From Octopus vulgaris (taxonomy: Eukaryota): a stretch of DNA of 64,000 nucleotides. The notes below the pieces were generated by a model, which was given only the letters and a program-made list of their open reading frames with translations, searched no databases and was not told the DNA's origin. The stretch covers positions 32,488,001 through 32,552,000 of the forward strand of contig OX597822.1 of the NCBI GenBank assembly GCA_951406725.2, in the 5' to 3' direction. This document shows positions 11,814 to 12,756 of the stretch, piece after piece. How positions within the stretch are numbered: the first letter of the stretch is position 1; each line of letters opens with the position of its first letter. The position numbers and the translations under genes are program-made.

Positions 11814-12140
11814 AATATATAATATATATATATATATATATATATATATATATATATATATATATATATATATATATATATATATATATATATATATATA
11901 TATATATATATATATATATATATATATATATATATATATATATATATATATATACATATATATAATAAATATTAGGGAATAAATCCAAATTTACAGGGAA
12001 AAAAATCAGATTTAGGATTAAATCCAATTTTATAGTAAAATATTATATAATATTATTAGAGACAAAACCACTATTTTGCAAAACAAACAAGGAAAGACTT
12101 AATCAATACATAAAATTTTAATAAAAAGTCAAACAAACCG

Positions 12141-12183
12141 CCACTACAATTGTTTCTTGTCTTGATCGACAATCTTCAGGTGG
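12141..12183 (-). ncRNA. Type I minimal hammerhead ribozyme (mirror copy)
   Basis: Exact reverse complement of 12230-12272. Confidence 0.85.
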
Positions 12184-12229
12184 ACTTCCAATAAGTCAGT
12201 TTCAAATTTGAAACTGACTTATTGGAAGT

Positions 12230-12272
12230 CCACCTGAAGATTGTCGATCAAGACAAGAAACAATTGTAGTGG
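12230..12272 (+). ncRNA. Type I minimal hammerhead ribozyme
   Basis: CCAC-CUGAAGA-UUGUC(GAUCAA)GACAA-GAAA-CAAUUG-UA-GUGG; palindromic stem III; predicted cleavage after GUA at 12268. Confidence 0.87.
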
Positions 12273-12756
12273 CGGTTTGTTTGACTTTTTATTAAAATTT
12301 TATGTATTGATTAAGTCTTTCCTTGTTTGTTTTGCAAAATAGTGGTTTTGTCTCTAATAATATTATATACATATATATATATATATATATATATATATAT
12401 ATATATATATATATATATATATATATATATATATATATATATATATATATATATATATATATATATATATATATATATTTATTTATATAAATATATATAT
12501 ATATATATATATATACATATATATAGATATTTATTTATATTTACATAAATATATATATATATATATATATATATATATATATACATATATATATATATTT
12601 ATTTATATTTATATTTCCATAAATATATATATATTTCATTATATATATATATATATATATATATATATATGTAGGTCCCGGGTTGATTCGGGGTTAACCA
12701 CAGTAAGTAAGGTACTCAATACATAGCAGAGTAAAATTAATTTATTATATAGAAGG

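What the first reader, a model, noticed from the sequence alone, without database searches (positions are those of the whole stretch)
12044..12369. Perfect 326-bp spacerless palindrome with an intact hammerhead on each strand
The arms look identical with no spacer, which implies a very recent insertion or arm homogenisation. A transcript in either direction contains one ribozyme plus its full antisense, so hairpin formation should compete with self-cleavage. The ~160-bp duplex would also be an ADAR or Dicer substrate; extensive A-to-I editing is established in coleoid cephalopods (host assignment is inferred). The DNA could extrude a cruciform next to (TA)n.
Basis: partly seen in the sequence, partly recalled or inferred. 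Interest (0 to 1): 0.72.

Follow-up and report, generated by a model that had tools for sequence, protein, structure and literature searches.

The report
Spliced Penelope retrocopy forming a palindrome
This DNA palindrome is two head-to-head, intron-less copies of the front end of a common jumping gene (a Penelope-like retrotransposon) sitting in a TA repeat, likely made when the element's enzyme copied its own spliced RNA from two start points, and each arm carries the family's usual hammerhead-shaped RNA motif, which is only predicted to cut.

Summary
Real, but one copy of a known kind of element. The 326-bp palindrome is exact. It is the core of a ~400-bp insertion (11965-12363) in (TA)n: one arm carries an extra ~80-nt tail, and a 16-bp target duplication flanks it. 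Each arm is the 5' leader of an intact 840-aa Hydra-clade Penelope-like element (telomerase-like RT, C-terminal GIY-YIG motifs), minus a ~2.35-kb GT-AG intron. The genome holds 314 exact spliced junctions, 300 intron-keeping acceptors and 28 loci with this same spacerless apex. Of 82 inverted pairs, 79 have exactly one tailed arm and none has two; in 15 neither arm contains the other; a common subfamily SNP agrees between arms in 66 of 66. All 12 ORF-linked leaders keep the intron. Best reading: two cDNAs primed at two fixed sites on spliced sense RNA and joined at its 5' end through AATT (inferred). Cleavage, transcription, editing and cruciform are unshown. This scan noted what looks like the same family before (e1-10340866).

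The parts
11965..12206 (-). Long arm: cDNA-type copy of the spliced 5' leader (exon 1 + exon 2 with hammerhead + tail) of the Hydra-clade PLE
   Evidence: matches exon 1 joined to exon 2 of the intact copy L064 with 4 substitutions and one 1-nt indel over 241 nt; family-wide
11965..12043 (-). Tail (~80 nt), present on this arm only; lies between the two inferred RT start sites
   Evidence: 79 of 82 inverted pairs have it on exactly one arm
12207..12363 (+). Short arm: second copy of the same spliced leader, ending at the upstream start site
12205..12208 (.). Spacerless apex, self-complementary AATT, a few bases inside the inferred RNA 5' end
   Evidence: same apex at 28 loci; 62 of 64 unambiguous arms start within 9 nt upstream of this point, peaks at the A of two TCA motifs
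12220..12221 (+). Exon 1 | exon 2 junction (mirror at 12193|12192 on -); parent copies have a GT...AG intron of 2328-2360 nt here
   Evidence: 314 exact junction matches genome-wide
12230..12272 (+). Type I hammerhead motif with short palindromic stem III (dimer type); predicted cut before 12269
   Evidence: sequence; cleavage untested
12141..12183 (-). Mirror hammerhead motif; predicted new 5' end at 12144
   Evidence: symmetry
12279..12279 (+). T>G variant shared by both arms (mirror 12134), found nowhere else in the assembly in this 24-nt context
   Evidence: 2 exact matches, both at this locus
11949..11964 (+). Left copy of 16-bp target-site duplication (TA run with one C), end of the (TA)n tract that starts at 11815
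12364..12379 (+). Right copy of the target-site duplication, start of (TA)n tract to 12670

Best explanation
The palindrome is a young, non-coding insertion made of two head-to-head copies of the intron-less 5' leader of a Hydra-clade Penelope-like retrotransposon, likely produced when the element's reverse transcriptase copied spliced sense RNA twice, once from each nicked strand of a (TA)n target, and the two cDNAs were joined at the RNA's 5' end. Steps. (1) Shown: intact parents exist (pLTR-ORF-pLTR, 840 aa). (2) Inferred: Pol II starts at one of two TCA motifs 4 and 9 nt upstream of the arm start, and the ~2.35-kb leader intron is spliced. (3) Inferred: the GIY-YIG domain nicks both strands of (TA)n about 16 bp apart (duplication shown). 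(4) Inferred: each nick primes cDNA at one of two fixed AT-rich sites ~80 nt apart inside the leader, so one arm gets the tail and the other does not (the one-tail rule is shown). (5) Inferred: both cDNAs run through the uncut hammerhead to the cap and anneal by short microhomology, here AATT, giving zero spacer. Because priming lies upstream of the ORF, a spliced RNA used this way gives only ~250-nt stubs; ORF-bearing copies would come from unspliced read-through RNA, which would explain why full elements keep their intron. The hammerheads here are likely passengers. Identity as a spliced PLE leader pair: ~0.93. Two-primer mechanism over fold-back: ~0.65.
For: Parent: ORFs of 743-841 aa beside the same pLTR in several of 20 fetched stretches; AlphaFold model's top 8 PDB matches are telomerase TERTs; DKT, RIKWK, YRDD, CxCx5C, YIG, CxxC, CxH motifs as listed for Hydra (PMC8557442 section 11); homolog P0008 (E 2e-105) is near-identical by eye to published Hydra-2_Amil. 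Splicing: window junction equals exact removal of GTAAGT...AG; a second junction type uses the other donor variant, GAAA|GT (4 loci), so both junctions obey GT-AG. Counts: 314 spliced and 300 unspliced exact matches; 12 of 12 ORF-linked leaders unspliced. Anatomy in 96 loci: 82 inverted pairs, 79 with one tail, 0 with two (binomial p 4e-20 against 0.5); 15 of 79 have a 5'-cut tailed arm beside a full untailed arm, so neither can be a copy of the other. Same template: SNP at leader position 81 agrees in 66 of 66 pairs (32 discordant expected), positions 22, 45, 56 likewise; position 93 has 1 discordant of 69. Two adjacent internal RT starts, nicking of both strands and use of uncleaved RNA were shown in vitro for another PLE (PMC11167929).
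Against: No RNA, cap or splice read was seen; splicing and start site are read from DNA copies only. The 96 loci were picked for an intact junction, top score or the spacerless apex, so proportions are not genome-wide; two of them (L012, L014) are one duplicated segment. Three pairs scored as having no tail. A 5-nt-loop apex, which simple snap-back would give, is as common as the spacerless one (28 loci each). The variant private to this locus's two arms fits fold-back copying or later conversion as well as a source copy missing from this assembly. Pfam and a PDB sequence search gave no RT or GIY-YIG hit for the parent; the GIY-YIG call rests on motifs and alignment. One RNA copied twice cannot be told from two RNAs of one source locus.
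Confidence: 0.65

Rival explanations
1. Same element, but the second arm is made by fold-back: one cDNA reaches the RNA 5' end, snaps back on the natural TTCA-AATTA-TGAA mini-hairpin and copies itself.
For: 28 loci have the 5-nt-loop apex this would give; explains arm identity, SNP concordance and the private G in both arms here with no extra assumption.
Against: 15 of 79 one-tail pairs have arms that do not contain each other, three with little or no overlap; the spacerless apex needs a loop of zero or the same 1-nt loss at 28 loci; junctions also hold foreign DNA (own flank, telomere repeats), as end-joining of two ends would. It may still apply to some full-arm copies, this one included.
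Confidence: 0.2
2. Arms are identical because of later arm-to-arm conversion through a hairpin or cruciform.
For: One variant is shared by both arms and absent elsewhere; sample-private shared variants occurred in 8 of 52 full-arm palindromes and 0 of 30 asymmetric pairs.
Against: Three of those 8 were tested genome-wide and all three are small subfamilies (12, 22, 26 matches), one including long unspliced copies; arm-specific differences persist in full-arm palindromes (22 sample-private ones in 52 loci). Four of the 8 were not tested.
Confidence: 0.08
3. Antisense self-priming, as proposed for head-to-head PLE palindromes in Adineta (PMC3846280): an antisense transcript is the template, which would also explain intron retention.
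For: Head-to-head geometry is the one described there.
Against: Both arms carry the sense GT-AG spliced junction, which an antisense template would not have unless it were copied from an already spliced insertion; 5' ends pile up at initiator-like sites of the sense strand.
Confidence: 0.04
4. Assembly or long-read fold-back artefact.
For: Several spacerless palindromes show clustered small deletions in one arm, so hairpins may be hard to sequence; no raw reads of this locus were seen.
Against: Flanks are not mirrored, one arm has a tail, a target duplication is present, and the same anatomy recurs at dozens of loci with varied junctions.
Confidence: 0.03

Closest known systems
Hydra clade of C-terminal EN+ Penelope-like elements (Craig et al. 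2021, PMC8557442), incl. Hydra-2_Amil and Hydra-1_Obim
   Same: ORF motifs, hammerhead in the pLTR, (TA)n targeting, partial tandems, inverted 5' copy, one-sided tail.
   Different: A different family from Hydra-1_Obim (proteins clearly differ by eye; that entry is listed with 'no pLTR'); tail ~80 nt, not 30-40; kilobase leader intron with two donors; 108-aa insert with 44% Asn; about half of the leader copies are spliced.
Penelope of Drosophila virilis (PMC2377424; PMC4209133)
   Same: Start site, then a 5'-UTR intron whose end lies just before hammerhead helix I; small palindromic helix III; inverted terminal copies.
   Different: Intron there is 75 bp and described as retained in genomic copies; here hundreds of genomic copies lack it. 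Different PLE clade.
PAc, Poseidon of Anolis (PMC11167929)
   Same: Two internal RT start sites that bound the tail; AT-rich target cut on both strands; hammerhead cleavage not needed for insertion.
   Different: PAc starts lie inside the ORF and are not homologous to the target; here both lie upstream of the ATG and end in TA-like sequence. No spliced palindromes in the parts read.
L1 twin priming (recalled; not read here)
   Same: Works like it: two target strands prime on one RNA and give an inversion joined by microhomology.
   Different: In L1 the two pieces usually do not overlap; here they mostly overlap fully, giving a palindrome, and the start sites are fixed.
Animal non-LTR retrozymes (PMC7229834; bioRxiv 10.64898/2026.07.22.740005)
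   Same: Short, non-coding, type I hammerhead, PLE-related.
   Different: Retrozymes are head-to-tail tandems that give circular RNA; these copies are head-to-head stubs of a coding element.

Membership tests
EN+ Penelope-like elements | Single ORF with telomerase-related RT | tested here: met
   parent L064, 840 aa; top 8 Foldseek matches are TERT, E 2e-7 to 2e-6; YRDD at 360; Pfam silent
EN+ Penelope-like elements | GIY-YIG endonuclease in the same ORF | tested here: met
   C-terminal VVY...YIG with conserved R, E, N columns in alignment A1, matching the Hydra description; no profile hit, so by motif only
EN+ Penelope-like elements | pLTRs from partial tandems around the ORF | tested here: met
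   leader-ORF-leader in L064/L065 and L078
EN+ Penelope-like elements | Inverted 5' copy and a tail on one end only | tested here: met
   82 of 96 loci inverted, 79 of 82 with one tail; tail is longer than the 30-40 bp described
EN+ Penelope-like elements | Hammerhead motif in the pLTR | tested here: met
   motif and topology; no Rfam hit
EN+ Penelope-like elements | Self-cleavage, RT and nuclease activity | not testable with these tools
   needs bench work
EN+ Penelope-like elements | Spliceosomal intron in the 5' UTR/pLTR | tested here: met
   two GT-AG junction types in genomic copies; no RNA evidence
Hydra clade | DKT in place of DKG; RWK-type N-terminal motif | tested here: met
   DKT 128, RIKWK 41
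Hydra clade | CxCx5C linker; no CCHH inside the nuclease; CxxC and CxH near the C-terminus | tested here: met
   CTCRDKSNC 691; the only CxxC is CYLC 797; CRH 826
Hydra clade | Insertion into (TA)n | tested here: met
   window and nearly all printed loci
Hydra clade | Placement in the Hydra clade on an RT tree | not tested
   no reference set loaded; homolog P0008 matches Hydra-2_Amil by eye
Hydra clade | Generally short (<3 kb) | tested here: not met
   ORF 2.5 kb plus 3' region plus 1.1-2.4 kb intron; a tendency in the paper, not a diagnostic
Non-LTR retrozyme | Head-to-tail tandem monomers, each with a hammerhead | tested here: not met
   copies are head-to-head or single
Non-LTR retrozyme | Circular RNA from double self-cleavage | not testable with these tools
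   no RNA reads; none of the 5'-cut arms listed starts at the predicted cut

The most novel reading that the evidence does not exclude
These palindromes record the Penelope insertion reaction: one spliced, capped mRNA is copied twice by a two-headed RNP from two fixed sites upstream of the ORF, so spliced RNA can only leave dead ~250-nt hairpin stubs while intron-keeping read-through RNA makes all coding copies. That would solve the PLE intron-retention puzzle, overturn the antisense-template idea for this family, and make such stubs a mass source of perfect dsRNA hairpins in a heavily RNA-editing animal.
Probability: 0.45. Interest if true: 0.7.

Novelty: new member of a known kind. Interest (0 to 1): 0.42.

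Why it matters
As a single locus it is ordinary transposon debris. The family is useful: how PLEs make inverted repeats and tails, and why they keep introns, are named as open questions (PMC8557442, PMC3846280). Hundreds of copies with an exact splice junction, a strict one-tail rule and SNP-matched arms give a direct, testable model and an intact young ORF to test it with. If transcribed inside host RNAs, such stubs would add perfect hairpins in a group known for very high dsRNA potential and hyper-editing (PMC5625713); that link is untested, and the octopus host is inferred, not shown here.

Tried and rejected
Rfam gathering scan of the window: 0 hits. Folding the arm alone: no better than shuffles. 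First walk upstream with a spacer motif from L019: unique to that locus. Pfam on the parent and on 9 aligned proteins, and a PDB sequence search: nothing useful. Sequencing runs: no RNA holder listed. Contigs of 4 public runs laid on the right arm cover it, junction included, but list no strand-change joint and cannot show splicing, strand, or the private G (in run X1 all depth at 12279 was T or a deletion; in the others the remainder was not resolved): inconclusive. A direct look for splice joints across the parent's intron in public runs was not obtained, so splicing at RNA level stays open. Hammerhead cleavage leaving 5' ends at the cut: no pile-up among the 5'-cut arms listed (biased sample). 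ADAR marks copied into DNA: A>G 5 and T>C 6 of 68 substitutions, no excess. 'Private' variants as proof of conversion: 3 of 3 further ones tested were subfamily variants. MITE/DNA transposon: rejected, since the arms meet head to head and carry a splice junction. DNA deletion instead of splicing: rejected, two junction types both at GT...AG. Target duplications in other loci are mostly unreadable in pure TA (24 loci gave a shared string, many uninformative). Published Hydra sequences were compared by eye only. No host exon was evident in the window's ORF list; no gene model was tested.

Full report
Observation. Window 12044-12369 is an exact palindrome, 163+163 nt with no spacer. Each strand carries a type I hammerhead motif: core CUGAAGA at 12234, 5-bp stem II, self-complementary stem III, GUA triplet, predicted new 5' ends at 12269 (+) and 12144 (-). 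Rfam gives no hit. The imposed monomer fold is weak (-5.4 kcal/mol) and stem III can pair with a second copy (-6.4); in the full palindrome the hairpin wins by ~76 kcal/mol. Minimal, dimer-type hammerheads with low activity are described for animal PLEs (PMC4209133, passages).

It is a repeat family. A 152-nt arm search of the own genome (2.8 Gb) gave 991 candidates, 40 scored, 69 matches; the best other copies are 98.7-99.3% identical and most are inverted pairs. Comparing loci shows that the insertion is larger than the palindrome: long arm 12206 to ~11965 with a ~80-nt tail, short arm 12207 to ~12363, both ending in (TA)n. A 16-nt string with the one C of the TA run lies on both sides (11949-11964, 12364-12379), read as a target-site duplication. 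Unmirrored flanks, the one-sided tail and the duplication argue against a fold-back chimera; the identical spacerless apex occurs at 28 loci. No raw reads of the locus were seen.

The parent. A motif just upstream of the arm has 126 matches. Twenty stretches around such matches held ORFs of up to 841 aa next to the same leader, in leader-ORF-leader order in L064/L065 and L078. The L064 protein has DKT, RIKWK, YRDD, CxCx5C, YIG, CxxC and CxH, the features listed for the Hydra clade (PMC8557442 section 11). Its model (mean pLDDT 72) matches telomerase TERTs first in the PDB; the Atlas gave RT-containing clusters as a lead; Pfam and PDB sequence searches were blank. Homolog P0008 looks near-identical to Hydra-2_Amil in the paper's supplement; the octopus entry Hydra-1_Obim is a different family (by eye). 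Inverted 5' copies and a one-sided tail are described PLE traits.

The arms are spliced. Long copies read exon 1, GTAAGT (or GAAA then GTATGT), intron, AG, exon 2 with the hammerhead. The window has exon 1 joined to exon 2 exactly; the in-silico join of L064's exons matches the long arm with 4 substitutions and one indel. The GTAAGT donor lies 2328-2360 nt before exon 2 in five copies; four loci carry the junction expected from the other donor. Exact matches genome-wide: 314 spliced, 300 intron-keeping (these count arms, not loci). All 12 leaders that run on into the ORF start keep the intron. Of 64 arms whose start is not blurred by the apex, 62 begin within 9 nt upstream of the arm start, 18 and 14 at the A of two TCA motifs: an inferred capped start. 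In D. virilis Penelope the intron likewise ends just before the hammerhead and follows the start site closely (PMC2377424, passages).

Rules of the insertions. I mapped 96 loci (27, 9, 60 from lists; repeats of the same locus dropped; L012 and L014 later proved to share 2.3 kb of flank). 82 are inverted pairs, 14 single. 79 pairs have one tailed arm, 0 have two, 3 scored none (p 4e-20). In 52 both arms are near full, in 12 the short arm is cut, in 15 the tailed arm is cut while the short arm is full; in those 15 neither arm can be a copy of the other. Subfamily SNPs agree between arms: 66 of 66 at the commonest site, with 32 mismatches expected by chance; one discordant pair of 69 at another site. 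Junctions are varied: spacerless AATT (28 loci genome-wide), 5-nt loop (28 loci), other short overlaps, and inserts of own flank or telomere repeats. The sample favours copies with an intact junction.

Mechanism. These rules fit two cDNAs primed at two fixed sites of the leader, one from each nicked target strand, on RNA from one source, joined at the RNA 5' end. Two internal starts bounding the tail, cutting of both strands and use of uncleaved RNA were shown in vitro for the Anolis element (PMC11167929, parts 1-2 of 4). Here both sites are upstream of the ATG, so priming in the 5' leader of a spliced mRNA gives only stubs; that coding copies come from unspliced read-through RNA is inference from the 12 of 12 count. 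Fold-back remains possible for full-arm copies such as this one: its two arms share a G found nowhere else in the assembly. Three other sample-private shared variants proved to be subfamily variants, so inheritance from a source copy is the usual cause and conversion is not required. The antisense self-priming idea (PMC3846280, passages) does not fit arms that carry a sense splice junction.

Not shown. Transcription, cleavage, editing, small RNAs and cruciform extrusion were not observed. Copies run through the intact hammerhead, with no start pile-up at the cut and no A>G excess. Public contigs were inconclusive. The host is taken to be an octopus from genome size and earlier scan notes; I did not test it. 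Octopus is reported to have very high dsRNA potential and hyper-editing (PMC5625713, passages).

Literature. Six searches listed no paper on spliced PLE retrocopies or twin priming in PLEs; the library lacks subscription journals, so the older PLE papers (2003, 2005, 2006) were not seen, and bioRxiv supplements are closed. Also seen: PMC7229834 (passages) and bioRxiv 10.64898/2026.07.22.740005 (part 1 of 5) for retrozymes, which this is not. My reading was noted before I looked at earlier scan notes; those report the same reading for what looks like this family (e1-10340866) and similar anatomy for sister families. They are AI notes and not independent support; a sequence look-up did not confirm that the family is the same.

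Verdict. Real; a new family member of the Hydra-clade PLEs; ordinary as a locus, useful as evidence on how PLEs insert. Interest 0.42.

Noticed in passing
window 12671-15646: A second hammerhead element 300 bp away in the same TA tract: 223-bp inverted repeats, 99% identical (12738-12960 on -, 15424-15646 on +), each with a type I hammerhead (core at 12801 - and 15583 +, 4-bp stem III), around ~2.4 kb of AC-rich low-complexity DNA with a T-rich tract before the + copy. Likely another PLE family with a retained intron.
   Followed up: partly
L016:1660-1784: About 125 nt of (TTAGGG)n sits at the junction between the two arms: telomere repeats captured during joining.
   Followed up: no
L008:1325-1494: The junction holds a 150-nt exact inverted copy of the insertion's own flank; L011 and L107 hold 236 and 130 nt of other DNA.
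   Followed up: partly
L064 ORF, residues ~497-604: 108-aa insert with 44% Asn, low confidence in the model; recalls the N-rich inserts reported in Adineta Penelope ORFs (PMC3846280).
   Followed up: no
L072, L076, L062 (leader region): The parent's promoter/donor region is duplicated at ~1.2-kb spacing, giving two donors and introns of ~1.1 or ~2.35 kb made largely of GT-rich simple sequence.
   Followed up: partly
L087, L092, L094, L097: Spacerless palindromes with clustered small deletions in one arm only: sequencing trouble in hairpins or real hairpin processing.
   Followed up: no
L012 and L014: Two insertions on different contigs share 2.3 kb of flank at 99%: a duplicated segment, not two events.
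   Followed up: partly
L086: Both arms carry the same change in the hammerhead core (CUGAAUA), shared with at least one other sampled locus: a core-mutant hammerhead was still copied.
   Followed up: no
window 10428-11701 (-), 7993-8568 (+), 31762-32262 (+): Broken LINE reverse-transcriptase fragments (label from recalled motifs); the (TA)n tract with the palindrome begins just beyond the 11201-11701 piece.
   Followed up: no
L077:7303-9953: A different PLE-like ORF (KPADKGG, C-terminal nuclease with internal CxxC; labels recalled) lies near a copy of this family.
   Followed up: no
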